Origin: Escherichia phage vB_EcoM_G17
Strand: one strand, 5' to 3'
Sequence record: MK327931.1
Length of the DNA: 64,000 nucleotides
Shown here piece after piece: positions 15,072-29,879 of the stretch. Below the pieces are notes generated by a model, which saw only the letters and a program-made list of their open reading frames with translations, was not told the DNA's origin and did not search any database. Within the stretch, counting starts at the first letter, position 1; each line of letters starts with the position of its first letter. A program made the translations under genes and the position numbers.

Positions 15072-15313
15072 TTTCTTATTCCTTAGTTACCAGGGGAACC
15101 GCTCCCCTATGCAAAACATTATACGCGTTTAAAAACTAATAGCAAGTATTTTAATAAAAAGTATTTGGAAAATAATTGTTGACAAGTGCATCCAGTACTG
15201 GCATAATTACTACATCAAGACGAAACAGTCACTAACCCACCGGGTGCATAGATCCGTCTATTAAATGATTCAGTACTGAAAAAGTAACGGGGAGTTATTA
15301 TCTCCCCGCGTTG

Positions 15314-15535
15314 TTATTTTGTAAGGTATAAACAGAAGTCACCTTTATTTGCTACGCCGCCAGTGTAACGCGATGAATAGTTAGAAATATCTTGTACTTC
15401 TGCTATTACCAGTGTATCATCATTCATTTCGTCGCAGAAGCAAACGGCTGGATCTTTTACGCCGATATTGTCGGCATGTTCCCGCATAGATTTAACCAGT
15501 GCTTCCAGTTGAGAAAGAGTAGTGATATTAGCCAT
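15314..15535 (-). CDS. hypothetical protein (73 aa)
   Basis: Track ORF 15314..15565 trimmed to MANITTL (GAGGA SD). Confidence 0.55.
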   Translation of the reverse strand: MANITTLSQLEALVKSMREHADNIGVKDPAVCFCDEMNDDTLVIAEVQDISNYSSRYTGGVANKGDFCLYLTK

Positions 15536-15621
15536 TGTATTTTCCTCATTACCAGGGAGAACCATTTCTCCCCTCTATGTAAACTATTATACAGTACTGA
15601 AAACTAATTGCAAGTACTTTT

Positions 15622-15825
15622 TTAATTTAATTGCTTTAAAACATACTCAAAGACACCACGCACATCATTGATCATCGCCTGGCGGTTAGCAGGTAACGCA
15701 TCAGGATCGCCACTATCCCAGGCATTGATAAAACTCCCCAAATCATGATAGATTTTATTCTGTAAGCCGATTAACTGTAATTCTTTTTCTTCAAGCTCTT
15801 TGATGCGGTCGATTAAATCACTCAT
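15622..15825 (-). CDS. hypothetical protein (67 aa)
   Basis: Track ORF 15622..15861 trimmed to MSDLIDR (GAGGA SD). Confidence 0.5.
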   Translation of the reverse strand: MSDLIDRIKELEEKELQLIGLQNKIYHDLGSFINAWDSGDPDALPANRQAMINDVRGVFEYVLKQLN

Positions 15826-16579: not shown

Positions 16580-17191
16580 TTAATATGCGATTGATTCTAC
16601 TACGTCATCAATAACATTGAATTGATATTCGTTACCCTCAATCAGTGCCGTAATGTTTTCAGTAGTGAATTGATCCTCATATGCATTCTCTAAATCACGG
16701 TACAACTTGCGGGATAATTCACGAATAGTTTCAGTGAGTAGTTCCTCAAGCTCATTAACTAACGTTTCTTGTTTTGCGGTTAAATCAGTGTAAGCCGATT
16801 CAATGTACCCGCTTACAGTATTCTCATGCGAGTAGTGGGAGTGAGAACGCTTTACACTCATCGCCAAATCATCTTCATTCAGCAGGTGACGGATTGAGCG
16901 ATACTTAGTTAATGCTCTTACCTTGCGTAAAAACTTCACTGCGTCAACGTGGTCAGTACTGATTGATGCACCGTCACCCTGGGACCAAAAACCACTGAAT
17001 TGTATTTCAGCTTCATTAATGCCATATTCCGGTAGTACTGTTTCTTTATAGTATTCAATTTCACTTTCAGAAAAATAATTGTCGTTTGAGTTTTTTTCAC
17101 GTTCCCGAACCAGTTCGATAGCTGACGTTTTTTGTTCTGCGTTCAATTCAGAAAAATCCATAACGAAAGTAGTAGTAGTGATAGTTTTCAT
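16580..17191 (-). CDS. hypothetical protein (203 aa)
   Basis: Track ORF; tandem promoters and structured leader upstream (17200-17400). Confidence 0.65.
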   Translation of the reverse strand: MKTITTTTFVMDFSELNAEQKTSAIELVREREKNSNDNYFSESEIEYYKETVLPEYGINEAEIQFSGFWSQGDGASISTDHVDAVKFLRKVRALTKYRSIRHLLNEDDLAMSVKRSHSHYSHENTVSGYIESAYTDLTAKQETLVNELEELLTETIRELSRKLYRDLENAYEDQFTTENITALIEGNEYQFNVIDDVVESIAY

Positions 17192-17617
17192 TTTGTAACC
17201 CTCATTCAGTAGTTGATGTAAGTATTATACGCTTTTAAAAACATTTGTCAAACTATTTTATCAGGGGAGTTTTTCGTGTGCCTTACTCCTGGGCTACTTA
17301 ACGGGAAGTTACTTATTTCGTTCCCCGTCCTGATGTAAAACATTATACGCCTTTAAACATAGTTTGCAAGTACTTTTTAAAAATAGTTTTCAGTACTGAA
17401 TATTTAAAAAAGTATTGACAGCATTATCAAGTACTGGCATAATATACCCCATGACAACAGCTAACCCACCGGGTGCACAATTGTAACTATACTAAACTAC
17501 TTTTTCTATAGATACACTCCCGCACCCTATGGGCTACGGCTTATCTGCCAATGAATACATTATGCCAGTACTGACAAAATAAGTCAATACCGGCAATTGT
17601 AAAGATTTGTAAACTGC

Positions 17618-17848
17618 TTATACTGCAATCGCGTCCAGGCTATAATAATAATAAGTGCCGTATTGGTGTACTTTATTACCTTTTATTTCAGTACTGAATG
17701 AATCCGAACGGTTTGCATATGATGTTAATTTAAAGTACTTTGATTTGCTGATACGTTGCCATACACCGCAGATCCGCTGTAAGTAAGTAGTTTTATTCGT
17801 GGTAGTATCTTTTACAGTTTTAACTTCAGTCATATACATATTAGTCAT
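17618..17848 (-). CDS. hypothetical protein (76 aa)
   Basis: Track ORF; GGAG SD. Confidence 0.5.
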   Translation of the reverse strand: MTNMYMTEVKTVKDTTTNKTTYLQRICGVWQRISKSKYFKLTSYANRSDSFSTEIKGNKVHQYGTYYYYSLDAIAV

Positions 17849-17935
17849 TTTTATTACTCCAGGTTATAGGCGGGAAGAGTTCCCGCTCTCGATGTAAAAC
17901 ATTATACGCCATTAAACATAGTTTGCAAGTACTTT

Positions 17936-18202
17936 TTATTCAAGTACTGCAATCTTTTTAGTACGGTACACGGTCACGCGGTTGCCCTTTCGGTCGAGCT
18001 TTATTTCTACCACTCGACGCGATACACTATCAGGACTTTTCAACGCCGCTAACCAGTACTGTAATGATCTGGCGGTACTACGCTTTATAATGGCCCAACG
18101 TTTACCACGTTCCGATTGTACGCCCATATCTTTAAACGTTGCCCCGTCCTGGCGTGCGGCGATCCGAGCTTGTTCACGCGTCGCAAAATACTTAATATTC
18201 AT
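17936..18202 (-). CDS. hypothetical protein, paralog of 5754..6149
   Basis: Shares KYFATREQARIAARQDGATFKDMG and DRKGNRVTV motifs with 5754..6149; start trimmed to MNIKYF. Confidence 0.55.
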   Translation of the reverse strand: MNIKYFATREQARIAARQDGATFKDMGVQSERGKRWAIIKRSTARSLQYWLAALKSPDSVSRRVVEIKLDRKGNRVTVYRTKKIAVLE

Positions 18203-18287
18203 GCTGTTGCCCTTATCGTTGGTGTATGAATAAAACACTATTATAAAGTACTATCGCAAAAAATGATAGTACTTTAAATAAATTCTA

Positions 18288-18527
18288 TTACATTCCAACC
18301 ATTGCAGCACGGATCGCAGTAGTGCTATATTTGAATCCGTCCGGCGTTTTATCTTGTCCAGTCTGTTCTAAAAATAACATCATATGACGGGCCGCATCAT
18401 TACGATTAGTATTGGCGGCAATAAAGTCCTGGGCCAACCGGTATAATGATTCATCGTTATTAATCCAAAGGCTTACATTCCAATGAGTTTTGTTTTTGTG
18501 ACCTAAGAACATTTTTGATTTAGCCAT
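18288..18527 (-). CDS. hypothetical protein (79 aa)
   Basis: Track ORF 18288..18566 trimmed to MAKSKMF. Confidence 0.5.
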   Translation of the reverse strand: MAKSKMFLGHKNKTHWNVSLWINNDESLYRLAQDFIAANTNRNDAARHMMLFLEQTGQDKTPDGFKYSTTAIRAAMVGM

Positions 18528-18620
18528 TTTTTTAATCCTCTTATATAGTGGGGAACTATTCCCCACCTGATGTAAAACATTATACGCTTTTAAACATAGT
18601 TTGCAAGTACTTTATTAAAC

Positions 18621-18983
18621 TTATTCGTAAATTTTGCCACTGTCAGCCCATACCAGGAAACGAGGCATATTATCCCATGCATCTTGTTTTAAATTTAAAC
18701 CGTGTAATACTTCTGTACTTTCCATTCCTGGTACTGGTTTACTATACACCGCGAAATTTTCGCCCATATACTGATAAACCATCGTCAAATCACTGGCGAT
18801 CATCTTATGGATCATCGCATCAAGCATCACGGTAGCGGCGTATTGTTCACGCTTAAGCGGCAACATTGTAATAAGTTCCCGATAAGCTGAAATGTGAATT
18901 TTTACCGTTTCAGCCGGAAGACCTTTCATCTCTTCACGGAAGTTGACCAGGTTAGAAATAATTTTATTGATTTGGGTCGCCAT
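18621..18983 (-). CDS. hypothetical protein (120 aa)
   Basis: Track ORF 18621..19040 trimmed to MATQINK (AAGAGA SD). Confidence 0.55.
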   Translation of the reverse strand: MATQINKIISNLVNFREEMKGLPAETVKIHISAYRELITMLPLKREQYAATVMLDAMIHKMIASDLTMVYQYMGENFAVYSKPVPGMESTEVLHGLNLKQDAWDNMPRFLVWADSGKIYE

Positions 18984-19764
18984 CGTATTAATCTCTTTTA
19001 AAGTGTAGCGGGAAGTGTTCCCGCTCTCGATGTAAAACATTATACGCCTTTAAACATAGTTTGCAAGTACTTTCTACATGTACTTTTAAAATAGTTTTCT
19101 TTCTATATAGGGGAACTATCATTCAGTACTATTATTCAGTACTGAATCAACCAAATCACTACTACACCCCATAAAACGGCCTCAGACGCATTCTAACGCA
19201 TTAATACACCTAAGCTATACATTTGCACCATTCCAATCATTCCAGGGCTTTACGGGCCGTTTAAACGCGTTAAATTATTTTCAATTATTTTGTTTTTAGC
19301 TATTGACTCAGTACAGAAAAAGCGTATAATTACTACATAGACGCGAGAAAGCGGAAACCCCAGAGGGTGCGGAATTACGCCCAAAATTCAAGATATAAAA
19401 AAAGGATACACTCCCGCACCCTAGCAGGTAAACGCACTTTCTCAGTACTGAAATATAGTACCATAGTCCGGCCCAGGATAGCAAGCAAATTAATTAAAAC
19501 TTTTTTGCTTCCAGGGTATTGCTTTATTTTTTCAGTACTGTATAATAGTTCCATCAAGTCGAGAAAGACTCAAGCCCACCGGGTGCATAGTTACGCCCAA
19601 AATTCAGTACTGAAAAAATTTTTAAAAATATCCGTCCAGGCCGTTGACATTGCCCCCAGTTTATAAGATAATGATTCCAGATTCAGAAAAATCTAACTCC
19701 AGATACTGCGGGGAAACTATCCCCACGCGGTAGGGGAACTATTGGAAAAAACAAAATAAAATTT

Positions 19765-19880
19765 TGATTTAGCCGTCTATACTTCCAGACGTGTAACCAT
19801 CTAGCCGTTTAGCCGTCCAAACGTCTAGCCATCCAGAAATCTAGCCGTCTAGATGGATAGCCATCTTTACTTCCAGACTT
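19765..19880. repeat. iteron cluster: six copies of TAGCC(G/A)T and two of CTTCCAGAC
   Basis: Read directly: tagccgtc at about 19770, 19802, 19809, 19825 (tagccatc), 19841, 19857; no ORF. Confidence 0.6.
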
Positions 19881-20868
19881 CTGGAGGGCTAGACATATCT
19901 ACGCCCAAAATCCATCCAGGGTAACTACACCCAAAATCCGTCAGTACTATACCATAGATCTATCTTTTGAAAGGGAGTATTCAGTACTGCCATCATAGCC
20001 CTCACTATGTTACCCTAGGAGGATGAAGACCATCATGTAGTACTGAATACTGTTAGAGGGAATCCACCAGCACAAGCTGGTGGTATAATGCTTTAGATTA
20101 AAATCAGTACTGACACCATTCTGTTAATATCAGTACTGTTATTACGATTTTCATATGAGGTTCAAAAAGATGTACCACCACAGGAGGAACTATCTTTTCT
20201 GTACTGTCTCACGACAGGAGGTAGAGTAAATGAATTGTTCGCAGCAACTCATCACCCCTTGAAGCTATGTAGAACATTATACAGTACTGAATCATAATGT
20301 CAATAGCTTTCTTTCATTATTCAGTACTGATATTCTTGAGAACTACCCGACTACAAACATCATTATATCCCACAAATCATAAACGTCCCAACGTAAATTT
20401 CAACTTTCGAAGATCCAACTTTTATTTCATAGGTACTCCAAAATTTTTAGGATCGAGATTTAGGATGGAGTACTAACCAACTTTTTGCTGGAGCCTCAAG
20501 GGGTAATTGAATTTTACCCCGAAGGGTAAAAGGGTAATTGTAATTAAGGTGAAAGTAATAATTCAGTACTAATCATTGCGTGATTACTTTTGATTACATT
20601 TGATGTAATTTGCAAAATGGAAAAGGAGCTTGGAAACTACAAAGTACGGCAGACTTCCTCTGCCTACTTAGTGGCATATCAGTACTGAATCATTCACACA
20701 CATTTCCGTGCATTCTTGTCTATACTAATCAGTACTGAATCATATATAATCATTCTGTGATTCTACGGTGCTCATATAAATGTTTATATATGATTACTTA
20801 TGACTACCTATGATTACGGGGTTTAGCCTGGGGAGAATCCTAGTGATCGCATTTGTCCAGGCTGAATT

Positions 20869-20891
20869 TTAACATATGCAACATATGTTAA
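20869..20891. promoter_or_regulatory. perfect palindrome TTAACATATG-caa-CATATGTTAA (candidate dimeric-protein binding site)
   Basis: 10 bp arms, perfect inverted repeat, in non-coding DNA downstream of the small-protein operon. Confidence 0.45.
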
Positions 20892-20933
20892 AGCCTGTAT
20901 AATGCTTCCACTACGGAGCTTCCCCTAGCTATA

Positions 20934-21125
20934 TTACTTCCTATATATAATCATTAAGATATAGTAGTACTGATTATACTGTACATTCTCTTTAATATTA
21001 TAAGGGTCTATAGCAATCTCGGTACATCTATTAAATGCATATCTATTAAATGCCAGTGGAATTATAGATCTAATCCATACTTGTTCATTTTCTTTTAGTT
21101 TACTTATATAGAAGTTTTTATACAT
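20934..21125 (-). CDS. MHKEYY-family small protein (member 1)
   Basis: 63 aa; N-terminus MYKNFY, C-terminus LMIIYRK. Confidence 0.6.
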   Translation of the reverse strand: MYKNFYISKLKENEQVWIRSIIPLAFNRYAFNRCTEIAIDPYNIKENVQYNQYYYILMIIYRK

Positions 21126-21140
21126 AGTATTCTCTATTAA

Positions 21141-21323
21141 TTAATATGATAGTACTAGTGTTAGTACTGAGCACAATTGTTCTTTGTAGTTCTTAGGGTA
21201 TATAGAATCTTTTATGCACTCATTGAAGTGCCATAGGTATAATCTTGGGTCGCATTCTTTATATATTCTTACGGGGACGAATGTTAGTTTTCTTATATAG
21301 AATTCTTTATGTTCTTTATTCAT
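21141..21323 (-). CDS. MHKEYY-family small protein (member 2)
   Basis: 60 aa; MNKEHKEFY...FNECI. Confidence 0.6.
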   Translation of the reverse strand: MNKEHKEFYIRKLTFVPVRIYKECDPRLYLWHFNECIKDSIYPKNYKEQLCSVLTLVLSY

Positions 21324-21328
21324 ATTAG

Positions 21329-21514
21329 TTAGTGTCTGTATATAAGTAATAGTAAGAATACGTACTGCACATCTTCATCTTTAGTATTGAGTACTGTACG
21401 TATTGCGTCATGGAACAAGAATATAGTACTTGGGTCATGAAAATTTAAAGGGGTTCTGGGTACGGCATGTTTGTAGTTCCCTTTAACAAATTGTGTGTAG
21501 TATTCTCTATGCAT
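21329..21514 (-). CDS. MHKEYY-family small protein (member 3)
   Basis: 61 aa; MHREYY...LLLLIYRH. Confidence 0.6.
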   Translation of the reverse strand: MHREYYTQFVKGNYKHAVPRTPLNFHDPSTIFLFHDAIRTVLNTKDEDVQYVFLLLLIYRH

Positions 21515-21515
21515 A

Positions 21516-21701
21516 TTAGTACCTATATATTAGGGCGAGAATGTAGTACAATTCATATGGAATGTAATTTGGGGTGATCGCACACTGTGTATGGTAAATG
21601 AATTGTTCGGTATTTTTCTTATCCTTGATATCTATTGGGATTAGTGGTATAAGCATTTGGGAGTTTAGATCCAGATGGCTTAAGTAGAATTCTTTATGCA
21701 T
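21516..21701 (-). CDS. MHKEYY-family small protein (member 4)
   Basis: 61 aa; MHKEFY...ILALIYRY. Confidence 0.6.
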   Translation of the reverse strand: MHKEFYLSHLDLNSQMLIPLIPIDIKDKKNTEQFIYHTQCAITPNYIPYELYYILALIYRY

Positions 21702-21710
21702 ATTGTTCTC

Positions 21711-21899
21711 TTAGAATACGAAAGCTAGGTACAGGGTATGATACAGTACTCGATGGTAGCTGTCAAAATCTAGTATACATGCTTTAGTGCACATAGTAAA
21801 ATACACTTTATCATTTTGTGCATTGATACCGCGAGGTTTATCTAATAGATTAGTTCTGAGGTACATTGGGAAATATTTTGTGTAGTATTCTTTATGCAT
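21711..21899 (-). CDS. MHKEYY-family small protein (member 5)
   Basis: Track ORF 21711..21944 trimmed to internal MHKEYY start. Confidence 0.55.
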   Translation of the reverse strand: MHKEYYTKYFPMYLRTNLLDKPRGINAQNDKVYFTMCTKACILDFDSYHRVLYHTLYLAFVF

Positions 21900-21900
21900 G

Positions 21901-22083
21901 TTAGTACCTGAATATAAGTAGGATAGTGTTATATAGCTGGTCATAACTACTACTATTTTCTATACTTCGTTCTATGCAGTTATTGAATCCCAGTACTGCC
22001 AAATCGTTATCCAGAGGGACTTTATATCTGGCGTAGTGTACAAAAATGCTGGGGAGAAATTGTGTGTAGTATTCTTTGTGCAT
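21901..22083 (-). CDS. MHKEYY-family small protein (member 6)
   Basis: 60 aa; MHKEYYTQF...FNNCI...LLIFRY. Confidence 0.6.
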   Translation of the reverse strand: MHKEYYTQFLPSIFVHYARYKVPLDNDLAVLGFNNCIERSIENSSSYDQLYNTILLIFRY

Positions 22084-22084
22084 A

Positions 22085-22276
22085 TTAGTACCTATATATT
22101 AGTAAAAGGATGTGATACAGTACTCGATTATAGTCTTCAATATATATCGAGGATTTAGTGCACTGAATGAAGTAGTCTTTTTCGTAGTTTTTTTCTATAC
22201 CCAATGGTTCTGTTGGTACAAGGTGTTGGAGATACATTGGGAGTTTCTCTATGTAGTATTCTTTGTGGTTATTCAT
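22085..22276 (-). CDS. MHKEYY-family small protein (member 7)
   Basis: 63 aa; MNNHKEYY...LLLIYRY. Confidence 0.6.
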   Translation of the reverse strand: MNNHKEYYIEKLPMYLQHLVPTEPLGIEKNYEKDYFIQCTKSSIYIEDYNRVLYHILLLIYRY

Positions 22277-22277
22277 A

Positions 22278-22460
22278 TTAGTACCTGAATGTTAGCATTA
22301 CTACGTAGTACAGCATATATGGATTATCATCGTATATGAGCGTGTACTTAGTACATTGTTGGAACATTATCTTTGCGTGATCTTTTATTCCTATTGGTTC
22401 TGTTGGTATATGGTGCTGGAGATGCATAGGGATTTTATCCCTGTAGTATTCTTTGTGCAT
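22278..22460 (-). CDS. MHKEYY-family small protein (member 8)
   Basis: 60 aa; MHKEYYRDK...FQQCTK...MLTFRY. Confidence 0.6.
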   Translation of the reverse strand: MHKEYYRDKIPMHLQHHIPTEPIGIKDHAKIMFQQCTKYTLIYDDNPYMLYYVVMLTFRY

Positions 22461-22470
22461 GTTGTTCTCT

Positions 22471-22653
22471 TTAGTACTTATATATTAGGAGTAAAATGTT
22501 ATAGTACTGGTTCATTGCGTCATCATTTTCTATAGCACGTTTTACGCTATTCATGTAGTTAGATCGAGCGGCACGAGTTATGAGAAGAACTTTGTATGCA
22601 GCAAAGTATTTTTGCTGCACGGGTAGTTTAGAGATATAGTATTCTTTATACAT
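22471..22653 (-). CDS. MHKEYY-family small protein (member 9)
   Basis: Track ORF 22471..22716 trimmed to MYKEYYISKLP; start overlaps stop of the 223 aa gene (ATGTATAA). Confidence 0.55.
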   Translation of the reverse strand: MYKEYYISKLPVQQKYFAAYKVLLITRAARSNYMNSVKRAIENDDAMNQYYNILLLIYKY

Positions 22654-23317
22654 AGTTTGTAATATACGTAATGAGGTGATGCATTTTCTTATTAGTACTG
22701 ATAATTTCCTGTACATGTTTTGTCAGATTGTACGCGTTTTTATAGAGTACTGGATTATCGATTACAGTACTGTACATGAATAGTTCTTCTTCCTGTAGTT
22801 CTTTGTGTTCTAGTTCTTTGAGGAAATCTACAATTGATTTAGTTTCTTCTGAACGTTGTGCTTGCCAGAAGTGCATATTCTCGTGTACTTTTTCTGCATC
22901 AGTAGAGTATATGCCACCCATTTGGAATTGTGCTGTATTGACATCGTGGGAGGTGTTACAATTCCCGAAGAAGTATGTATTCCCGAAGTATAGCATTAAA
23001 GTGCACGGGGTATTATCCAACTGCATATTGATGATGAAGGATGCGTTCTTTAGTACCTTTGTGCTCGTATTAGTACTCAATACTTTTAAATCAGTATTAT
23101 AGATATTCATATAATGAACAGCTATATTATTTTTCTTCATGTACAATTCAAGGTTCTTTGATACGTTAACTCCATTTGTACTGGATTTTTCCTTTTTATT
23201 TCGTTTCTTTAGTACATTCGGGTGATACGTATATGCAGATGTAACTGATTCTGCCTGAATACTATTGAGGTACTTAAAGTGCTTAAGGTATTGTTTGCTG
23301 TGTGCATTAAGTTTCAT
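22646..23317 (-). CDS. hypothetical protein (223 aa) embedded in the small-protein operon
   Basis: Track lists it as +, but the stop (rc tta at 22646-22648) and ATG (rc cat at 23315-23317) are on the minus strand; AAGGAAA SD upstream. Confidence 0.6.
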   Translation of the reverse strand: MKLNAHSKQYLKHFKYLNSIQAESVTSAYTYHPNVLKKRNKKEKSSTNGVNVSKNLELYMKKNNIAVHYMNIYNTDLKVLSTNTSTKVLKNASFIINMQLDNTPCTLMLYFGNTYFFGNCNTSHDVNTAQFQMGGIYSTDAEKVHENMHFWQAQRSEETKSIVDFLKELEHKELQEEELFMYSTVIDNPVLYKNAYNLTKHVQEIISTNKKMHHLITYITNYV

Positions 23318-23327
23318 TTGGTTTCCT

Positions 23328-23507
23328 TTATATAGATGCCAGGGCGAGGATTTCCCTGTAGGGATTATCTTGTGTTAGTACAGCATAAATGCAGCTATTG
23401 AGATTAATATTTTTAGTACTTTTTGTTCCTAGTTTGTAGTACTTCACGAAGGTGTCGTACATGAAACGGTCTTTTATGGTTATACGTTCTCTATAGAATT
23501 GTTGCAT
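23328..23507 (-). CDS. MHKEYY-family small protein (member 10, 59 aa)
   Basis: Hand-translated (MQQFYRERITIKDRF...ILALASI), below track cutoff. Confidence 0.4.
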   Translation of the reverse strand: MQQFYRERITIKDRFMYDTFVKYYKLGTKSTKNINLNSCIYAVLTQDNPYREILALASI

Positions 23508-23515
23508 AGTATTCC

Positions 23516-23698
23516 TTAAATAGCGATTAGTTTCATTACTTCTCTGTATGTGTACTTTTCGTTTTGTGCATCTCTTGTGACGACATATAGGAAGGTGTGT
23601 TTATCTTTTTTGTTCCCGCAATTGTAGAAAATATTGAACTTATTGAAGTTGAATCTTTCGGCGTGTTGTAGTTTAGTTAAATAGAATTCTATGTTCAT
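23516..23698 (-). CDS. MHKEYY-family small protein (member 11)
   Basis: 60 aa; MNIEFYLTKL...MKLIAI. Confidence 0.55.
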   Translation of the reverse strand: MNIEFYLTKLQHAERFNFNKFNIFYNCGNKKDKHTFLYVVTRDAQNEKYTYREVMKLIAI

Positions 23699-23706
23699 TT
23701 TCTTCC

Positions 23707-23892
23707 TTACATTTCAATAAGTTTAAGTACTGCTCGGTACGTGTACTTAGTTGTTAGTGCTTCTTTAATAGAAATGCAGAAGTAATGTTGTTTGTCTCTT
23801 ATACTGCCGCGTTTGTAGTACCACACATGGGAGTTGTGACTGTACTTGTCTCTGTCGGATAGTTGTTGGTAGTAGTAGCTTATATGATTCAT
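23707..23892 (-). CDS. MHKEYY-family small protein (member 12)
   Basis: 61 aa; MNHISYYYQQL...LKLIEM. Confidence 0.55.
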   Translation of the reverse strand: MNHISYYYQQLSDRDKYSHNSHVWYYKRGSIRDKQHYFCISIKEALTTKYTYRAVLKLIEM

Positions 23893-24101
23893 TATAATGT
23901 AATTAGCCTTACTATATTAAAGTACTCGGTCCCTGGTGTACCTTGTAGTATATTACGCACGACATTTTTTTGGTGCTGGATGATTGCTGAAGGTGCGGTT
24001 CTTTTTAGTTTTTTTAAAGTACTGAATTCTTGTTTAAGTATGAACTGTACATCTTTAGGGAGAATATCTATGTAGTACTGATGAATGTTTGTAGTTTTCA
24101 T
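23892..24101 (-). CDS. MHKEYY-family small protein (member 13)
   Basis: 69 aa; MKTTNIHQYYIDILP...VRLITL. Confidence 0.55.
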   Translation of the reverse strand: MKTTNIHQYYIDILPKDVQFILKQEFSTLKKLKRTAPSAIIQHQKNVVRNILQGTPGTEYFNIVRLITL

Positions 24102-24111
24102 ATAGCACCTT

Positions 24112-24306
24112 TTAGAACTTAAAGATGAGGTTCAGGATAGAGCGGTACTTAGTTTCAGGGAACTGATGTTCTATTGCATAACGTGTCGCCATCCTGAAAT
24201 CGTAATTGTAATATAGATTATCCTTTCTCATAGGTGGTGCTAAAGAGAATGATAGCTGGTCTTGCTTGTGTAGTTTACTACCATAGAAATCTTTATGATT
24301 ATTCAT
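24112..24306 (-). CDS. MHKEYY-family small protein (member 14)
   Basis: 64 aa; MNNHKDFY...LNLIFKF; start overlaps upstream stop (ATGAATAA). Confidence 0.55.
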   Translation of the reverse strand: MNNHKDFYGSKLHKQDQLSFSLAPPMRKDNLYYNYDFRMATRYAIEHQFPETKYRSILNLIFKF

Positions 24307-24508
24307 AGAAGTAGATTAGTCCTATTAAACCTGAGTACATAATATTTTTGTTATTGCATTCGATTGCTTCTAGAGTACTACGTATACAATTATTAAAGCA
24401 ATCTCTACCGAAGTGAGTATTGGTACTTACAGGTGATACACTCCTTAGAAACAATTGTTCTTCGTTGCTAAGGTATTTGGTGTAGAATTCTTTATGTTCA
24501 GTATTCAT
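24299..24508 (-). CDS. MHKEYY-family small protein (member 15)
   Basis: 69 aa; MNTEHKEFY...FNNCIRS...LIGLIYFYE. Confidence 0.55.
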   Translation of the reverse strand: MNTEHKEFYTKYLSNEEQLFLRSVSPVSTNTHFGRDCFNNCIRSTLEAIECNNKNIMYSGLIGLIYFYE

Positions 24509-24509
24509 A

Positions 24510-24713
24510 TTAGTACTCGATTAAAAGGGCAAGGATATAATAGTATTGCATACTTTCTGCCCCTTGTAAAGCATTTCTTATGATATTACTCCTGTACGAG
24601 TTCAGGAGTTTAGGACAACGTTTGTAGTGTATAAAAGTATTTTGTGTATACAGTAGGCTTTCTCGTAGACCTTTTGTTGGTAGTGCATCGATGTAGTACT
24701 GTTCAATGTTCAT
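24510..24713 (-). CDS. MHKEYY-family small protein (member 16)
   Basis: 67 aa; MNIEQYYIDALP...LALLIEY. Confidence 0.55.
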   Translation of the reverse strand: MNIEQYYIDALPTKGLRESLLYTQNTFIHYKRCPKLLNSYRSNIIRNALQGAESMQYYYILALLIEY

Positions 24714-24937
24714 ATAGATAGCAGTACTAAGATTTTTGATAATTGTTTATTGCTATCCCCGCAGATGTTGCTGTGTAAAATACTCACAATGAGGGTATCA
24801 ATTGCATTGTTCATCATAAGGGTGCATCTTGGACTATTATAATTTTTTAGCTCAATTAGCCACGAACTATCCGAGAGAAATTCCCCGTACTCTAGTTCAT
24901 TTAGAGTATTGAGGTAGTACTTAAGAGTATTTGTCAT
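24710..24937 (-). CDS. MHKEYY-family small protein (member 17, first gene of operon)
   Basis: 75 aa; MTNTLKYYLNTL; AAGGAG SD; promoter TTGACA-N17-TACTAT upstream on minus strand. Confidence 0.55.
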   Translation of the reverse strand: MTNTLKYYLNTLNELEYGEFLSDSSWLIELKNYNSPRCTLMMNNAIDTLIVSILHSNICGDSNKQLSKILVLLSI

Positions 24938-25039
24938 GTGTAGTTCTCCTTATATTCCTTCTATAGTACACCAGTACTGAAAGGATGTCAAGGGTTTTCT
25001 TTATGGGGTAAATATGATATAATGAATAAGGAGGGATTT
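24938..25039. promoter_or_regulatory. divergent promoter region between the small-protein operon (minus) and the MLPF/RCC1-like array (plus)
   Basis: Minus: TTGACA-N17-TACTAT then AAGGAG; plus: TATAAT at about 25016 then AAGGAGGG and ATG at 25040. Confidence 0.55.
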
Positions 25040-26176
25040 ATGTTACCTTTTGTTAGAATGTTAAATTATGGGAACGTAGCACCAGAAAAACTAAAAGTTC
25101 GTGATATTGTTGCAGGTGCTAATTCATTATTACTAATAACCGAGGATAATGAATTATGGGTGCGTGGTAATAATTCGTATGGCAAATTAGGTATAGGAAC
25201 TGATACTATAGTGAATGTAACCGAGTGGACTAAAGTTAGAGATGATGTTAAGTTTGCTTGTGCTAGTAATTTAGTATGCGTTGTATTAACTGTAGATAAT
25301 AAAATTTTCTACTGTGGTGATGAATGGTTTGAATCTGGTGGTTCGACAAGTTCTAAAGTTGTTACATGGAAAGATGTTACGACACAATTTAGTGCAGTGA
25401 ATCTAAGCACAGTACGTGAAATGAAAATGACTTCTTATTGTGTAGGATTACTTACAAATGATAATAGATTATATGCTAAAGGATATGATAATAACCAATC
25501 ATTTGGTGGTTCAACAAGCAAAGTTAATGCTGTATTAGTTGCGTCAAATGTTTCAAAATTCTACACTTCTCTATCTGGTACTATATATTCTAGTACTACT
25601 GGTGGTTACTACCGCTGTGGTATAAGCAATACTGGAGCATTGGGTACTAGCACAAATTTAACTTCTTATAATTTGTACTCTGCTCCCGAATTTGCATCCG
25701 AATGTGCAGTTGGTATGTCAACATTAAACTCTGGTATATTATATTATGATACTAATGGTAGCACTAGATATGTTATAGCAGGTCAAAATAGATATTATCA
25801 ACTAGGTAATTCTTCTTCAAATACCACAAACGTATATTCGTATACAGAATTAACCGGATATAGAGGCAGGTTTAGGGATTTGTGGAGTGATATGAATAAC
25901 TCTGTTCTTTCTTTTGCTATAAGCACAGATGGCAATACTTTATATTATGCTGGTACTAACACTACACTATCTTCTGGTGACCCTGGTGTTGAATATTCAT
26001 CTACATTTAAAGAAGTACCACACGGGTTTAATGATATAACAAAGGCGGCATCGTTAGCCTATCTATCTATAGTGCAAGATTCAACGGGATGGTATTATTC
26101 TGGAAATGCAACTACGTTATATGGTTTGCCATCGAGTGATGAATTTATACCATTACCATTACCAACAATAATTTAA
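25040..26176 (+). CDS. MLPF-family RCC1-like repeat protein R1
   Basis: N-terminus MLPFVRMLNYGNVAP; repeated G-x-N-x-(Y/G)-(G/Q)-LG-x-G motifs (NNSYGKLGIGT, QNRYYQLGNSS); start trimmed from 25022 to the ATG with AAGGAGGG SD. Confidence 0.7.
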   Translation: MLPFVRMLNYGNVAPEKLKVRDIVAGANSLLLITEDNELWVRGNNSYGKLGIGTDTIVNVTEWTKVRDDVKFACASNLVCVVLTVDNKIFYCGDEWFESGGSTSSKVVTWKDVTTQFSAVNLSTVREMKMTSYCVGLLTNDNRLYAKGYDNNQSFGGSTSKVNAVLVASNVSKFYTSLSGTIYSSTTGGYYRCGISNTGALGTSTNLTSYNLYSAPEFASECAVGMSTLNSGILYYDTNGSTRYVIAGQNRYYQLGNSSSNTTNVYSYTELTGYRGRFRDLWSDMNNSVLSFAISTDGNTLYYAGTNTTLSSGDPGVEYSSTFKEVPHGFNDITKAASLAYLSIVQDSTGWYYSGNATTLYGLPSSDEFIPLPLPTII

Positions 26177-26182
26177 ATACAG

Positions 26183-26211
26183 GCCAGTACTTGATACTGG
26201 CTTTTCTTTTT
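26183..26211 (+). terminator. Rho-independent terminator after R1 (GCCAGTA-N5-TACTGGC plus T-run)
   Basis: Inverted repeat followed by ttttctttttt; next promoter -10 TATAAT at 26226-26231. Confidence 0.6.
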
Positions 26212-26247
26212 TGTATTAAATATAGTATAATGAATAAGGAGGGAAAT

Positions 26248-27450
26248 ATGTTACCTTTTGGAAGAATGGTTAAGTACGCAAATATTGCACCAGGTCCAGA
26301 ACCTGTAGAGTTCTCAGATGTTTTACAACAACATTATACAAACTGTATGTATCTCCATAACCCAACTAATACTTTATATGGTTATGGTAGTAATAACTTT
26401 TACCAATTTGGTCTTGGGAATTCAGCAGCAGTTTCGTCATTTACAGTACTTGCAAGGAACTGTGCAGCCTTTTGGCTTGGTGTTCAAGGTTCATTGATGA
26501 TTGATTTGGATAATAAAATATACTACACTGGGTCGGTTGGTGCATTTTCTGATTATGGAGATGCAACACCTGTTAATGGTTATTTGACAACATGGACTGA
26601 TGTTACTGTTGCATTTAATAAAATAGGTGTTATGGCTAATATGATCAAGAGTGTATATATAGGTGAAAGTACTAGAATATTATTAACCGATGGTAGAGTA
26701 ATTGCGTGTGGAAGAAATACTAATGGTGAATGTGGCTCTGGTAATAAAAATTCCATCCCTACACTCACAGTTATGACTAATATGGGTGAAGTTACACATA
26801 TGGCATGTTCATTACAAGGAACGCACTATATCAAATCAAATAAAGATGCATGGTTTTGTGGTAAGGATAACTTTGGTGAAAGTGGATGTGGTGGTAGTTT
26901 TGTTGTATATTTGAACAAATTCGTGATTAGTAATGTAGAACATATTAGTACTACATACGATGTTACTTGGTGGTTTACTACTGGTGGGCCTGTATATTAT
27001 AGCGGGGCTAACAGTTCTGGACAAGCTGGTAATGGTACGACTACATCGGTAAATCAGCTAACACCAATTAGGAACACATCGGTCACGGTTGATGTAAGTA
27101 AGTACAGTACTTTTATTTGTCCAAGTAATATGGGAAATGCATCAATTGGTGCACCTATGGCACAATACGCACCATATGTTAGAAGTAGTGGTGCTAACTC
27201 ATATGGTCAAGAAGGTAATGGAACTAATACATTAGTTAGAACTTGGAATATTTTTAATCTTAGTGCAATAAGTGGTGGTTATGACAATGTTCTTATGGCA
27301 TCTAAAGATTGGAGCAGAACCATAATAATTACTAAAGATTATAAATTATATGCATGTGGTGGCTGGAATGGTAGTGGTGGTAGATTACCTGATGGCACTT
27401 ATAGTATTACTACACTAACATTAATGCCAACGCAGTTATGGCAACAATAG
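26248..27450 (+). CDS. MLPF-family RCC1-like repeat protein R2
   Basis: MLPFGRMVKYANIAP; motifs SNNFYQFGLGN, RNTNGECGSGN, ANSYGQEGNGT; start trimmed from 26191. Confidence 0.7.
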   Translation: MLPFGRMVKYANIAPGPEPVEFSDVLQQHYTNCMYLHNPTNTLYGYGSNNFYQFGLGNSAAVSSFTVLARNCAAFWLGVQGSLMIDLDNKIYYTGSVGAFSDYGDATPVNGYLTTWTDVTVAFNKIGVMANMIKSVYIGESTRILLTDGRVIACGRNTNGECGSGNKNSIPTLTVMTNMGEVTHMACSLQGTHYIKSNKDAWFCGKDNFGESGCGGSFVVYLNKFVISNVEHISTTYDVTWWFTTGGPVYYSGANSSGQAGNGTTTSVNQLTPIRNTSVTVDVSKYSTFICPSNMGNASIGAPMAQYAPYVRSSGANSYGQEGNGTNTLVRTWNIFNLSAISGGYDNVLMASKDWSRTIIITKDYKLYACGGWNGSGGRLPDGTYSITTLTLMPTQLWQQ

Positions 27451-27458
27451 GAGGGAAT

Positions 27459-28568
27459 ATGTTACCTTTTGGAAGAATGATTAGGTATGGAAATATTGTC
27501 CCTGGTCCTAAAAAAATAATTAAAGTTGGTGCTTCTACCCAAGGCCAATTCTTATTGACTGATTCACATGATTTATATTACATAGGTAGAAATCAAGGTG
27601 GTGAATCTGGAAATGGTAATACCAACACGGTGTCTTCGTGGACATTAGTAAGTGCAGATGTTTCTAATTTTTTCGTGGGTGATCGTACACTTGTTATTAT
27701 TAAAAATGATAATACGATATGGACATCAGGTCAAACGTACTGGTTCTCATCTTCTACAACTACTTCTTACAGTACTGTATTAGTTGAAAGAACTAATTGG
27801 TTTACCAATGCTATACCAGTAAGTGAAATTGCTAATATTGTATGCACAAATGGTTTAATATTTGTACTTAGCACTAATTCAGTACTCTATGGTGCAGGAG
27901 ATAATGGATATCGTGGTTCTTTGGGTATTGGTTCATCATCAATTTACACATTAACTCAATGTGCTACGAACGTTCGTAAAGTAATGACCAATGCGAATGA
28001 TAGTATGTATCTTACATTAGATAATAAGCTATATAGTTCTGGATGGAATAGTAGTGGGCAGCATGGTACGGGGAACCAAACACAAATTAACACTTGGGGA
28101 TTGCGTAGTTCTGGTGTAATCGATGCAGCCATTGGTGGTAATGCATTAAATTACTATAATGGTACATCATATTTCGTATGTGGTCAAACTCCAAACTTTC
28201 TTAGTTCAGGTACGACTACATTCCGTGCAGTTCCTTTAAGTACTTTGCCTAATAGTTCTCCATTGTTTATGACGAATTCACCTGCCTTAAATACTGCTAC
28301 ACAAATGGTAATTACTAGTACATATCAGAAGGGTGTTGGGGCGAACCGTGGTTTGGGATTAAACAATTCTCAAACTGGTGCTATATATAGTGCTACCAAT
28401 TTACAATTACCCGTTGAAGTTAGTGAGATTAGGGATGTTCTTTTTAGTGATGGTTTGACATCGATATTAACCAAAAATGGAGACGTGTATAGTACTGGAT
28501 CGTATTACGCCATTCCAGGTGCAATCGAGGATGTTGCAGTCTTTACTAAAATTGATTTACCAAAATAA
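27459..28568 (+). CDS. MLPF-family RCC1-like repeat protein R3
   Basis: MLPFGRMIRYGNIVP; motifs RNQGGESGNGN, DNGYRGSLGIG, WNSSGQHGTGN; no terminator between R2 and R3 (co-transcribed). Confidence 0.7.
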   Translation: MLPFGRMIRYGNIVPGPKKIIKVGASTQGQFLLTDSHDLYYIGRNQGGESGNGNTNTVSSWTLVSADVSNFFVGDRTLVIIKNDNTIWTSGQTYWFSSSTTTSYSTVLVERTNWFTNAIPVSEIANIVCTNGLIFVLSTNSVLYGAGDNGYRGSLGIGSSSIYTLTQCATNVRKVMTNANDSMYLTLDNKLYSSGWNSSGQHGTGNQTQINTWGLRSSGVIDAAIGGNALNYYNGTSYFVCGQTPNFLSSGTTTFRAVPLSTLPNSSPLFMTNSPALNTATQMVITSTYQKGVGANRGLGLNNSQTGAIYSATNLQLPVEVSEIRDVLFSDGLTSILTKNGDVYSTGSYYAIPGAIEDVAVFTKIDLPK

Positions 28569-28574
28569 CATAAT

Positions 28575-28604
28575 GCCAGTACTCTGTACTGGCTTTCTTA
28601 TTTG
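28575..28604 (+). terminator. Rho-independent terminator after R3
   Basis: GCCAGTAC-tct-GTACTGGC then T-rich tract. Confidence 0.6.
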
Positions 28605-28638
28605 TATTAAATATAGTATAATGAATAAAGGAGGGAAT

Positions 28639-29808
28639 ATGTTACCTTTTGGAAGAATGATTAAGTACGGAAATATTGCACCTGCTAAACCAAATATTAA
28701 AAAAATACTTGCTAACAACTATAATGTTGCTGTTTTAACAAACAGTGGTGATTTATATGTGCGTGGTGAGAATGCAAATGGTCTTTTGGGTTTAGGTCAC
28801 AAAAATACTGTTACTACATGGACTTATAGTACTTCTGGTGTTCAAGATTTTTGGATGGGAGCCACGACGATAGTTCTTAAGAAAAGCAATGATGAAATAT
28901 GGTACAGTGGAAGTTCAACAACTGTTGGTATGAAAGGGGCAGCAGTATCAATATGGACTTCTGCTATGCCAACATTCGATACATTAACATTACCAATATT
29001 AGATATAGCAGTTAGTTATCAGACTACAAGTGTGTTACTGTCAGACCAAACAATATGGAGTACTGGAGTGGGGTCAGATGGTCAGTTGGGTGATGGGACA
29101 ACAACTAACAATATTGCTGGTAAATTCGTCAAAAGTACTGTTCCGGCCGCAGCAAATCAATTACCTGTTAAATTGTTTGCAAGTAATTTAATGCACGGTT
29201 ATGTTACAAACCAAGGATGGCTATTTTATACAGGAAGAGTAAATGCAGTTACAAGTTCAGGAAGTAAGTTATATACTATATATTATGGTGCTCCTACCAG
29301 CTTAAGAAATACAATTAATATCAAGTACTACACGGAGAATGGTACTTCAATGGCAATGGCAATTGGTACTGATCCAAATGGAAAAACCATCATCGCAAAT
29401 GGCGGTTCGAGAATATTTGGTGCACAAGCAGATGGGACAAATGGTTCTCTCAATGATTATAGAGCATTTGAGGTTCAAACTGCTTCACTAATGCCACCCG
29501 GTGATGTAGTAAGCATTGCTAACAATACTTCATATTATAACCAAGTTATTGCTACAACAGATGGTATATATTGTTGCGGCTACAATCAATCTTCAGAAGC
29601 TGGTATGTTAGGTATTGGTACATCTACCAATGCATTGGTATATACCAAAGCAATCGTGCCTGATGGGTTTGATTATAGTAAGTCGCAGATGGCAGGTGGG
29701 TATAACCGAACTTATATAACTGATGGTAATTTTGTATATAGCACAGGGACAAATGTCACATATGGTGGCGTTAGTAGCTTAGAATTTGTATTAGATTCAC
29801 CAGTTTAA
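28639..29808 (+). CDS. MLPF-family RCC1-like repeat protein R4
   Basis: MLPFGRMIKYGNIAP; motifs ENANGLLGLGH, VGSDGQLGDGT, YNQSSEAGMLGIGT; start trimmed from 28477. Confidence 0.7.
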   Translation: MLPFGRMIKYGNIAPAKPNIKKILANNYNVAVLTNSGDLYVRGENANGLLGLGHKNTVTTWTYSTSGVQDFWMGATTIVLKKSNDEIWYSGSSTTVGMKGAAVSIWTSAMPTFDTLTLPILDIAVSYQTTSVLLSDQTIWSTGVGSDGQLGDGTTTNNIAGKFVKSTVPAAANQLPVKLFASNLMHGYVTNQGWLFYTGRVNAVTSSGSKLYTIYYGAPTSLRNTINIKYYTENGTSMAMAIGTDPNGKTIIANGGSRIFGAQADGTNGSLNDYRAFEVQTASLMPPGDVVSIANNTSYYNQVIATTDGIYCCGYNQSSEAGMLGIGTSTNALVYTKAIVPDGFDYSKSQMAGGYNRTYITDGNFVYSTGTNVTYGGVSSLEFVLDSPV

Positions 29809-29814
29809 ATATAT

Positions 29815-29845
29815 GCCAGTACTCTGTACTGGCATTCTTATTTGT
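29815..29845 (+). terminator. Rho-independent terminator after R4
   Basis: GCCAGTAC-tct-GTACTGGC then attcttatttg. Confidence 0.55.
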
Positions 29846-29879
29846 ATTAAATATAGTATAATGAATAAAGGAGGGAAAT

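What the first reader, a model, noticed from the sequence alone, without database searches (positions are those of the whole stretch)
20934..24937. Operon of 17 tandem paralogous 58-75 aa proteins (MHKEYY family)
Seventeen back-to-back minus-strand genes encode small proteins with a shared architecture: N-terminal M(N/H)(K/R)E(Y/F)Y, a central F(N/Q)xC(I/T) motif in many, and a C-terminal hydrophobic tail (YY)ILLLIYR(Y/H/K). They are packed with 0-10 nt spacers or overlapping start/stop (ATGAATAA, ATGTATAA) and driven from one TTGACA-N17-TACTAT promoter at about 24960-24990. I do not recognise this family. The degree of tandem amplification and divergence resembles fast-evolving anti-defence or host-takeover gene families.
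Basis: seen in the sequence. Interest (0 to 1): 0.85.

Follow-up and report, generated by a model that had tools for sequence, protein, structure and literature searches.

The report
Hypervariable small-protein gene array, jumbo coliphage
A giant E. coli virus carries one tightly packed operon of 17 tiny genes, 16 of which belong to a protein family found only in this virus genus; the block differs far more between related viruses than the DNA around it, so it probably acts on the host, but its function is untested.

Summary
The window is Escherichia phage Sharanji, an Asteriusvirus jumbo phage. The 17 small minus-strand ORFs (59-75 aa) exist at the stated coordinates.

- **Family:** Eleven ORFs form one clear family (phrog_11711, unknown function). 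Five more join it by profile-profile comparison. The first gene is not a demonstrable member.
- **Coding:** Conservation is at protein level, and dN/dS is about 0.35-0.4.
- **Fold:** AlphaFold gives a confident four-helix fold with no structural, Pfam or PDB relative.
- **Range:** The family occurs only in Asteriusvirus, and only in this array.
- **Operon:** A conserved sigma-70-type promoter precedes the block. The genes are translationally coupled, and the C-terminal Arg codon AGG doubles as the next gene's ribosome-binding site.
- **Turnover:** Copy number varies from 14 to 21 between phages. Against phage JNE01 the array is 25-61% identical, while flanking genes are 89-100% identical. The paralogs are old (median 26% identity), so this is not a recent amplification.

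The best reading is an early, hypervariable cassette of small soluble binder proteins that acts on the host, in takeover or counter-defence. The function is inferred, not shown. It is a new member of a known kind, of moderate interest.

The parts
24963..24991 (-). Sigma-70-type promoter-like site TTGACA-N17-TACTAT with CAGTACTG in the spacer, followed by AAGGAG 7 nt before the m01 ATG
   Evidence: conserved in 6 related phages; a variant of a genome-wide promoter class. Transcription itself is not shown.
24710..24937 (-). m01, 75 aa, subfamily D; first gene of the operon; family membership unproven
   Evidence: annotated as gp105 in the record
24510..24713 (-). m02, 67 aa, subfamily B (MNIEQYYIDALP...NALQG...YYILALLIEY)
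24299..24508 (-). m03, 69 aa, core subfamily A (phrog_11711)
24112..24306 (-). m04, 64 aa, core subfamily A
23892..24101 (-). m05, 69 aa, subfamily B; absent from 121Q, E9.1, SD15 and UE-S1
23707..23892 (-). m06, 61 aa, subfamily C (...YTYRAVLKLIEM)
23516..23698 (-). m07, 60 aa, subfamily C
23328..23507 (-). m08, 59 aa, subfamily C
22646..23317 (-). m09, 223-aa protein unrelated to the family (phrog_29152), at a fixed position in the array in every relative
   Evidence: AF2 pLDDT 56, no meaningful fold match; found only in Asteriusvirus
22471..22653 (-). m10, 60 aa, core A (start at MYKEYY, not the upstream ATG of the 81-aa ORF); ortholog found only in 121Q and G17
22278..22460 (-). m11, 60 aa, core A
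22085..22276 (-). m12, 63 aa, core A; the member modelled by AlphaFold2 (four helices, pLDDT 91.8)
21901..22083 (-). m13, 60 aa, core A
21711..21899 (-). m14, 62 aa, core A (start at MHKEYY, not the upstream ATG of the 77-aa ORF)
21738..21766 (-). Internal promoter-like site TTGACA-N17-TATCAT with AGTACTG next to the -10, inside the m14 codons for FDSYHRVLYH; possible secondary start for m15-m18
   Evidence: pattern only
21516..21701 (-). m15, 61 aa, core A
21329..21514 (-). m16, 61 aa, core A
21141..21323 (-). m17, 60 aa, core A
20934..21125 (-). m18, 63 aa, core A; last gene of the array
   Evidence: annotated as gp102
19041..20933 (.). Conserved ORF-poor region bounding the array on its downstream side (88% identical to JNE01 up to 20874); likely recombination flank and transcript end

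Best explanation
**Shown**
- The block is one translationally coupled operon of 18 genes in the jumbo coliphage Sharanji.
- Sixteen of its 17 small genes are old, diverged paralogs of a family restricted to the genus Asteriusvirus.
- These proteins are about 60 aa, soluble and four-helix. Their aromatic and hydrophobic core is conserved, and the loop and helix surfaces are variable.
- The coding part of the operon is a hypervariable cassette. It sits between a conserved promoter and a conserved non-coding region.
- Members are gained, lost and fused, and the cassette differs far more between phages than its flanks do.

**Inferred**
- The host RNA polymerase reads the operon early in infection from the sigma-70-type promoter.
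- Ribosomes pass from gene to gene through start/stop overlaps, or through 1-nt gaps where the AGG Arg codon of the upstream gene serves as the Shine-Dalgarno element.
- Each paralog acts as a stand-alone small binder of a different host, or competitor, protein or variant. The shared N-terminal HKEYY helix and C-terminal LLLIY helix form the scaffold, and the variable surface gives specificity.
- The repertoire therefore serves host takeover or counter-defence and is tuned to the host strains each phage meets.
For: **Anatomy**
- Gaps are -8 to +15 nt within Sharanji. Across eight phages, 57 of 59 non-redundant junctions fall in that range and two are 47 nt.
- The penultimate Arg codon is AGG in 33 of 42 cases, against 13% of Arg codons elsewhere (Fisher P 2e-18; the counts include orthologs and are not independent).
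- No minus-strand terminator-like site lies inside the array.

**Family**
- Conservation is at protein level. dN/dS is 0.35-0.39.

**Fold**
- The model has pLDDT 91.8 and four helices.
- The core is conserved and the surface variable.
- No transmembrane segment is predicted: the maximum KD19 is 1.08.
- pI ranges from 5.0 to 10.0.

**Restriction**
- The family gives 66 clusters among 5.8 billion proteins.
- It gives 32 hits at E <= 0.001 among 1.84 billion representatives, one of them an unrelated 531-aa repeat protein.
- It occurs in 35 of 50,697 phage records, all from Escherichia or Salmonella jumbo phages; every one of those records inspected is classified in or close to Asteriusvirus.
- There is no copy elsewhere in the 350-kb genome.

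**Early timing**
- The promoter is conserved.
- Near-consensus sigma-70 sites number 100 on the coding strand and 11 on the other. They are concentrated in the small-ORF regions and rare in the structural region.
- The related phage CBB has RpoD-like promoters clustered over short ORFs, which its authors proposed to be early host-takeover genes (PMC5259590).

**Hypervariability**
- A metagenomic chimera, P0007, joins an m12 N-terminal part to an m14 tail at the shared RVLYH stretch.

**Not virion-associated**
- None of the array genes is among the 62 virion proteins of phAPEC6 (PMC7247149).
Against: - No expression data exist for this or any Asteriusvirus, so both the timing and the single-operon claim rest on sequence patterns.
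- No homology, fold match or experiment indicates a target or an activity.
- The higher synonymous divergence means that positive selection is not demonstrated.
- dN/dS below 1 and stable ortholog groups fit conserved housekeeping roles equally well.
- Part of the motif conservation may act at the mRNA level. Lys5 is always AAA and Glu6 always GAA, and the terminal AGG acts as a Shine-Dalgarno element.
- Small proteins are easily missed by virion mass spectrometry.
- The same genome holds another 26-member small-protein array. Tandem expansion may therefore be a general habit of this genome rather than a sign of a particular function.
Confidence: 0.45

Rival explanations
1. The small proteins are partners (chaperones, adaptors or assembly factors) of the neighbouring, divergently transcribed array of about 12 RCC1-like beta-propeller proteins. 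Some of those proteins are virion components.
For: - The two arrays share an 84-bp intergenic region.
- Both are tandem paralog families whose content varies between phages. JNE01 lacks the first RCC1-like gene.
- RCC1-like gp549 and gp551 are virion-associated in phAPEC6.
Against: - The RCC1-like genes next to the array are 82-96% identical between Sharanji and JNE01, while the small genes are 25-61% identical. The two arrays do not co-diverge.
- The numbers do not match: 12 against 17.
- The small-gene promoter is of the host sigma-70 type, whereas virion proteins are expected late.
- None of the small proteins was found in virions.
Confidence: 0.12
2. They are small nucleic-acid-binding regulators or nucleoid-associated proteins that shape the phage temporal programme. 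They might act, for example, at the heavily over-represented CAGTACTG palindrome found in many promoters, including their own.
For: - CAGTACTG occurs 199 times against 3.4 expected. In a promoter class it sits in the spacer between the -35 and -10 elements.
- Eleven of the 17 members are basic, with pI of 8.8 or more.
- An expanded small zinc-ribbon family in phage G was proposed to be transcription factors or structural DNA binders (PMC7824862).
Against: - pI spans 5.0-10.0, and several members are acidic.
- There is no Pfam DNA-binding domain.
- One palindrome does not need 17 diverged binders, and hypervariable regulators of a conserved motif would be unexpected.
Confidence: 0.12
3. They take part in conflict between phages rather than with the host. 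They would act in superinfection exclusion or in inhibiting competing phages or mobile elements, each paralog aimed at a different competitor.
For: - The evolutionary signature is the same as for the main explanation: hypervariability, gene turnover and an early-type promoter.
- Asteriusvirus genomes are often recovered inside E. coli assemblies (contig sizes and sources). This would give a setting for long co-residence with other elements.
Against: - There is no membrane anchor or signal peptide of the kind typical of many exclusion proteins.
- There is no direct evidence.
- The present data cannot separate this reading from the main one.
Confidence: 0.1
4. The array is largely dispensable cargo. 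Its paralogs would persist through weak selection and tandem-duplication dynamics that generally inflate jumbo-phage genomes, without a specific role for each copy.
For: - The genome carries other tandem families: 26 small genes at record 9571-15713, 12 RCC1-like genes and 5 MTHEEWM genes.
- Tandem duplication has been proposed as a route of jumbo-phage genome growth (PMC7247149).
- Members are freely lost between close relatives.
Against: - All 35 genomes that carry the family keep an array in the same place and order.
- dN/dS is clearly below 1.
- The structural core is conserved across paralogs that are only about 26% identical.
- Reading frames and translational coupling are intact.
- Eight to ten ortholog groups are near-universal.
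Confidence: 0.1

Closest known systems
Hyperplastic regions (HPRs) of T4-like phages, with PeSL (early promoter/stem-loop) mediated cassette shuffling (Arbiol et al. 2010, PMC2839356; Comeau et al. 2014, PMC4122927)
   Same: - A block of small genes of unknown function with early sigma-70-type promoters is embedded between conserved sequence.
- It differs sharply between otherwise near-identical phages.
- The conserved regulatory flanks could serve as recombination points. Conserved DNA stops at 20874 and resumes at 24944.
- Asteriusvirus has T4-like capsid, portal and baseplate genes.
   Different: - The variable genes here are paralogs of one family, not unrelated ORFans.
- They share one promoter and are translationally coupled, rather than each carrying its own PeSL.
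- No promoter-plus-stem-loop unit was found between the genes.
Lineage-specific expansion of a small zinc-ribbon protein (about 35 copies) in Bacillus phage G (Iyer et al. 2021, PMC7824862)
   Same: - A jumbo phage carries tens of copies of one very small protein family restricted to its own lineage.
- The function is unknown and was only guessed from context.
   Different: - There is no zinc ribbon or metal-binding motif here. A single Cys is conserved in only 66% of members.
- The fold is all-helical.
- All copies sit in one operon.
Early host-takeover gene sets of large virulent phages, such as the T4 early ORFans (example: 55.2, a topoisomerase I inhibitor, PMC4396842). The SPO1 host-takeover module is cited from my own knowledge.
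   Same: - The proteins are small, early and mostly orphan.
- Where studied, such proteins each bind and inhibit one host protein.
- They are often toxic when cloned.
   Different: - Those sets consist of unrelated proteins, whereas this one is a single diversified family.
- No target or toxicity is known here.
Multigene families and 'genomic accordions' of large eukaryotic DNA viruses, such as the ASFV MGF families and the poxvirus K3L amplification (my own knowledge, not checked here)
   Same: - Tandem paralog families occur near variable genome regions.
- Copy number differs between isolates.
- They are linked to host range and immune evasion.
   Different: - Accordions are recent, near-identical copies, whereas the copies here share a median of 26% identity.
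- The hosts, the proteins and the genome biology are all different.
The 26-member tandem family of 52-89 aa proteins in the same genome (record 9571-15713, LGTNYQE motif)
   Same: - It lies in the same genome arm and on the same strand.
- Its proteins are of similar size, and the genes overlap in the same tight way.
   Different: - It is unrelated by profile comparison, with hhalign P 0.04-0.43.
- Its variability between phages was not examined.

Membership tests
phrog_11711 (PHROGs v4, unknown function) | Significant match to the family HMM over its full length | tested here: met
   All 11 core members (m03, m04, m10-m18) were checked. Nine were scanned against PHROGs and match at E 1.6e-6 to 5.7e-28 over 55-62 of 62 positions. 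m14 and m15 were not scanned but score 1e-23 to 1e-25 with the core HMM.
phrog_11711 (PHROGs v4, unknown function) | The same match for the other six small genes (m01, m02, m05-m08) | tested here: not met
   They have no PHROG hit at E <= 0.01. m02/m05 and m06-m08 are linked to the core only by hhalign, with probability 92% and 95%. m01 is not linked.
T4-type hyperplastic region with PeSL-mediated shuffling | A variable gene block flanked by conserved sequence in close relatives | tested here: met
   Against JNE01 the flanks are 88-94% identical in DNA and the array shows only four short HSPs at about 72%. Proteins are 25-61% identical in the array and 89-100% in the flanks.
T4-type hyperplastic region with PeSL-mediated shuffling | A composite early-promoter plus stem-loop (PeSL) motif bordering each exchanged module | tested here: inconclusive
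   One conserved promoter lies at the upstream edge. A repeated promoter class, TTGACA-N9-AGTACTG-TATAAT, is found in the neighbourhood. No such unit lies between the array genes, and no stem-loop is paired with the promoter.
Recent gene amplification ('genomic accordion') | Near-identical tandem copies | tested here: not met
   The 136 paralog pairs in Sharanji have a median identity of 26% and a maximum of 49%.
Anti-CRISPR / anti-defence locus | Sequence or fold similarity to a known anti-defence protein | tested here: not met
Anti-CRISPR / anti-defence locus | An associated helix-turn-helix regulator (aca-like) in the operon | tested here: not met
   None of the ten products scanned against Pfam, including the 223-aa protein, has an HTH or any other domain. 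Scanning 51 core-family members and orthologs, each on its own, gave the same result.
Anti-CRISPR / anti-defence locus | Demonstrated inhibition of a defence system | not testable with these tools
   This requires expressing members in strains that carry defence systems.
Small membrane proteins (holin, spanin or exclusion-type) | At least one hydrophobic segment long enough to span a membrane, or a signal peptide | tested here: not met
   The maximum Kyte-Doolittle 19-residue mean is 1.08, below the usual cut-off of 1.6. N-termini are polar. In the AF2 model the hydrophobic C-terminal stretch is helix 49-62, one of the four helices of the confident fold. No dedicated TM predictor was run.
Virion structural or internal proteins | Detection in purified particles | tested here: not met
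   The phAPEC6 virion table (62 proteins) has no entry between gp347 and gp549. The array genes, such as gp542c, fall in that interval. This evidence is weak, because small proteins are often missed.

The most novel reading that the evidence does not exclude
The array is a repertoire of a structurally new class of small four-helix inhibitor proteins. Each paralog would neutralise a different bacterial immune or housekeeping protein. The phage lineage would swap the whole repertoire as one cassette, between a conserved promoter and a conserved non-coding flank, to match the defence content of new hosts. A variant reading is that the paralogs hetero-oligomerise through their conserved terminal helices into combinatorial assemblies.
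Probability: 0.25. Interest if true: 0.8.

Novelty: new member of a known kind. Interest (0 to 1): 0.55.

Why it matters
- **A well-defined test case.** Jumbo phages carry hundreds of unknown small genes. This cassette is 4 kb and has sharp boundaries, one promoter and 16 related proteins with a confident predicted fold. It is also the most divergent stretch in an otherwise conserved neighbourhood.
- **An accessible system.** Sharanji infects E. coli K-12, so deleting or swapping the cassette and screening single members for toxicity, partners or defence inhibition is feasible. If the members are host-interaction factors, they would add a new protein fold to the known set.
- **A model for repertoire exchange.** They would also show how large virulent phages exchange whole effector repertoires.
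- **Annotation.** The Sharanji GenBank record annotates only 3 of the 17 small genes plus the 223-aa gene, and several other records show similar gaps.

Tried and rejected
**Searches that found no relative or gave no functional clue**
- Pfam, on single members and on all 51 aligned members, gave nothing consistent.
- PDB sequence search with the family profile and with the 223-aa protein gave nothing.
- Foldseek against BFVD returned only the family itself.
- The afdb50 library was unavailable.
- A profile search of 1.84 billion representative proteins gave 32 hits. One of them (P0082, 531 aa) is an unrelated low-complexity repeat protein.
- Rfam and tRNA scans of the window gave nothing above threshold.

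**Literature**
- The papers on Sharanji, fEgEco12, phAPEC6 and CBB, and two jumbo-phage overview papers, contain no description of this family.

**Ideas considered and rejected**
- The motifs as a codon-composition or DNA-repeat artefact.
- Recent amplification.
- Membrane proteins.
- Additional copies elsewhere in the genome.
- m01 as a secure member.

Full report
**Identity of the window.** Window 20500-25500 is 100% identical to Escherichia phage Sharanji (OR545507.1, 350,079 bp, genus Asteriusvirus). Window position equals record position minus 15,777. The stretch is 85-97% identical to 121Q, PBECO4, phAPEC6 and about 30 other jumbo coliphages and Salmonella phages. The Sharanji record annotates only four genes in the block: m01, m05, m09 and m18. 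The 121Q record annotates all of its copies as hypothetical proteins.

**The observation.** ORF listing and a chain-walking gene finder give the same 18 minus-strand genes between 24937 and 20934. Seventeen are 59-75 aa.
- Two ORFs (m10, m14) must start at their internal MYKEYY or MHKEYY methionine to fit the packing.
- Junctions within Sharanji run from -8 to +15 nt. The reported ATGAATAA and ATGTATAA overlaps are present.

**Are the genes paralogs?** All-vs-all phmmer, an HMM scan and clustering with orthologs from eight relatives give four groups.

| Group | Members | Link to core A |
|---|---|---|
| A (core) | m03, m04, m10-m18 | Defines phrog_11711 |
| B | m02, m05 | hhalign probability 92%, P 7e-7, full length |
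| C | m06-m08 | hhalign probability 95%, P 5e-8, full length |
| D | m01 | Not established |

- The A-B and A-C scores are 33-37. Column-shuffled controls give about 9 +/- 2, and an unrelated 26-member small-protein family from the same genome gives 8-14.
- Group D reaches only 18.9 against B (P 0.004), so m01 is a possible but unproven member.
- Among the 11 Sharanji core paralogs, conserved residues use several synonymous codons: Tyr TAC 7/TAT 4, Leu up to five codons, Pro three codons. The motifs are therefore protein-level constraints and not DNA repeats.
- Ortholog comparisons give dN/dS of about 0.35-0.39, so these are real genes under purifying selection.

**The protein.** AlphaFold2 on a 51-sequence alignment gives a confident model of m12, with pLDDT 91.8 and pTM 0.77. 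Its helices span residues 2-9, 14-17, 30-45 and 49-62.
- Conserved positions are HKEYY (4-8), L12, P24, F36, C39/T40, I44, L53/Y54, L57 and L59-Y61. The 18-29 loop and the other helix faces are highly variable.
- Tyr content is 11%, against 5% in long ORFs of the genome. pI ranges from 5.0 to 10.0.
- No segment is hydrophobic enough for a membrane span.

**Distribution.**
- The family gives 66 clusters among 5.8 billion proteins.
- It gives 32 hits among 1.84 billion representatives, one of them spurious.
- It occurs in 35 of 50,697 phage records, all Escherichia or Salmonella jumbo phages of the Asteriusvirus group.
- A six-frame HMM scan of the whole Sharanji genome finds no member outside the array.

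**Operon mechanics.** TTGACA-N17-TACTAT at 24991..24963 is conserved in six phages, and a strong AAGGAG follows it.
- Near-consensus sigma-70 sites are very asymmetric in this genome. There are 100 on the coding strand and 11 on the other, and they are enriched in the small-ORF regions.
- In the related phage CBB, RpoD-like promoters over short ORFs were proposed to mark early host-takeover genes (PMC5259590).
- No minus-strand terminator-like site lies inside the array. One internal promoter-like site lies in m14.
- Junctions fall into three classes: overlaps of -8, -4 or -1 nt, 1-nt gaps, and 7-15-nt spacers carrying TAAGGA- or GAG-type sites.
- At the 1-nt gaps, the upstream gene ends ...AGG TAC TAA, and its AGG lies 10 nt before the next ATG. 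The penultimate Arg is AGG in 33 of 42 cases, against 13% elsewhere (orthologs are counted, so the cases are not independent).
- Part of the 'IYRY' tail is therefore a ribosome-binding constraint.
- Transcription and translation themselves have not been shown.

**Evolution.** Copy number is 17 small genes in Sharanji. The count is 16 in 121Q, 20 in slurp01, 21 in E9.1, 20 in WPEC5, 15 in SD-15, 14 in UE-S1 and 16-17 in JNE01.
- The order D-B-A-A-(B)-C...-[223 aa]-A... is preserved in every genome examined.
- Eight close phages share 22 ortholog groups, of which 8-10 are universal.
- Paralogs within Sharanji have a median identity of 26% and a maximum of 49%, so the duplications are old.
- A metagenomic protein, P0007, is an m12 N-terminal part fused to an m14 tail at the shared RVLYH stretch. 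This is what unequal crossing-over would produce.
- The sharpest result is the comparison with JNE01 (OR670491), shown in the table below.

| Region | Protein identity to JNE01 | dS |
|---|---|---|
| Nearest flanking genes on both sides | 89-100% (further out, 74-82%) | 0.05-0.44 |
| Array genes | 25-61% | 0.6-2.9 |
| 223-aa gene | 40% | 2.9 |

- Conserved DNA stops at window 20874 and resumes at 24944, which matches the coding array exactly.
- Synonymous divergence is also about 7-fold higher in the array. The island is therefore better explained by birth-and-death of paralogs together with cassette exchange than by amino-acid-level positive selection alone.

**Interpretation.** The anatomy is secure. 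The function is an inference from context: an early-type promoter, small soluble proteins with a conserved core and variable surface, genus restriction, hypervariability with conserved flanks, and absence from the phAPEC6 virion proteome (PMC7247149).
- This set of features matches host-interaction repertoires, meaning takeover or counter-defence. It also matches the hyperplastic regions of T4-like phages (PMC4122927, PMC2839356).
- It differs from those regions in being a single paralog family in one coupled operon.
- The rivals cannot be excluded. They are partners of the neighbouring RCC1-like array, nucleic-acid-binding regulators, inter-phage competition and dispensable cargo. Each is listed with its tests.
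- The 223-aa protein gave no clue.

**Verdict.** It is a new, uncharacterised protein family within a known kind of phage genome feature: a lineage-specific multigene family in a hyperplastic early region. It is of moderate interest, mainly because the cassette is compact and hypervariable and sits in a phage that grows on E. coli K-12.

Noticed in passing
window 19041-20933: A 1.9-kb stretch has no credible ORF and is unannotated in Sharanji and 121Q, yet it is 88% conserved in JNE01. It holds a perfect consensus promoter (TTGACA-16-TATAAT, 20303..20276, minus strand) and two 79-nt direct repeats, each starting at a -10 element (19324-19402 and 19540-19618). It also holds an 8/16-bp periodic repeat array (about 19768-19895) and terminator-like hairpins. 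A candidate small RNA of about 170 nt (20270 to 20105, minus strand) folds with z = -2.96 and ends in a 14-bp hairpin. There is no Rfam match.
   Followed up: partly
whole window; e.g. 20276-20303, 17224-17251, 3775-3802, 24963-24991 (all minus strand): The palindrome CAGTACTG occurs 199 times in the genome against 3.4 expected, and AGTACT occurs 903 times against 119. In a recurrent promoter class it fills the spacer, as TTGACA-N9-AGTACTG-TATAAT. Twelve of the 31 perfect sigma-70 matches carry it at a fixed offset, and about 20 copies lie in window 1300-21800. Most sites are not in promoters. It could be an operator for a dimeric regulator, an extended -10 element, or a PeSL-like recombination motif.
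   Followed up: partly
window 25022-39077, plus strand: A tandem array of about 12 paralogous RCC1-like/WD40_RLD beta-propeller genes of about 380 aa is transcribed divergently from the small-gene operon. Two orthologs are virion-associated in phAPEC6. JNE01 lacks the first copy.
   Followed up: partly
L003 9571-15713 (Sharanji record coordinates, just left of the window): A second and larger tandem family has 26 overlapping minus-strand genes of 52-89 aa with a shared LGTNYQE-type motif. It is unrelated to the MHKEYY family by hhalign.
   Followed up: partly
window 20934-24937: The Sharanji GenBank record annotates only 4 of the 18 genes in this block (gp102-gp105). Several other Asteriusvirus records also show 'none' under tblastn matches to family members.
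   Followed up: yes
L004 about 16946-18719 (Sharanji record 96645-98418): Five paralogous genes of 54-60 aa, all starting MTHEEWM, are interspersed with tRNA genes.
   Followed up: no
window 18288-18527 and neighbours; L019 11457-11696 and 13498-13737: Small 79-aa proteins downstream of the array match Pfam DUF7249 and are present in two copies in JNE01. These flanking small genes are 67-100% identical between Sharanji and JNE01, in contrast to the array.
   Followed up: no
proteins P0007, P0042, P0056, P0061 (metagenomic and phage relatives): Family members in other genomes show micro-rearrangements. P0007 is an m12/m14 chimera. P0042 and P0061 carry short internal duplications (YNQYNQYYY), and P0056 carries LVLSLVLSY. 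This points to frequent slippage and unequal exchange within the array.
   Followed up: no
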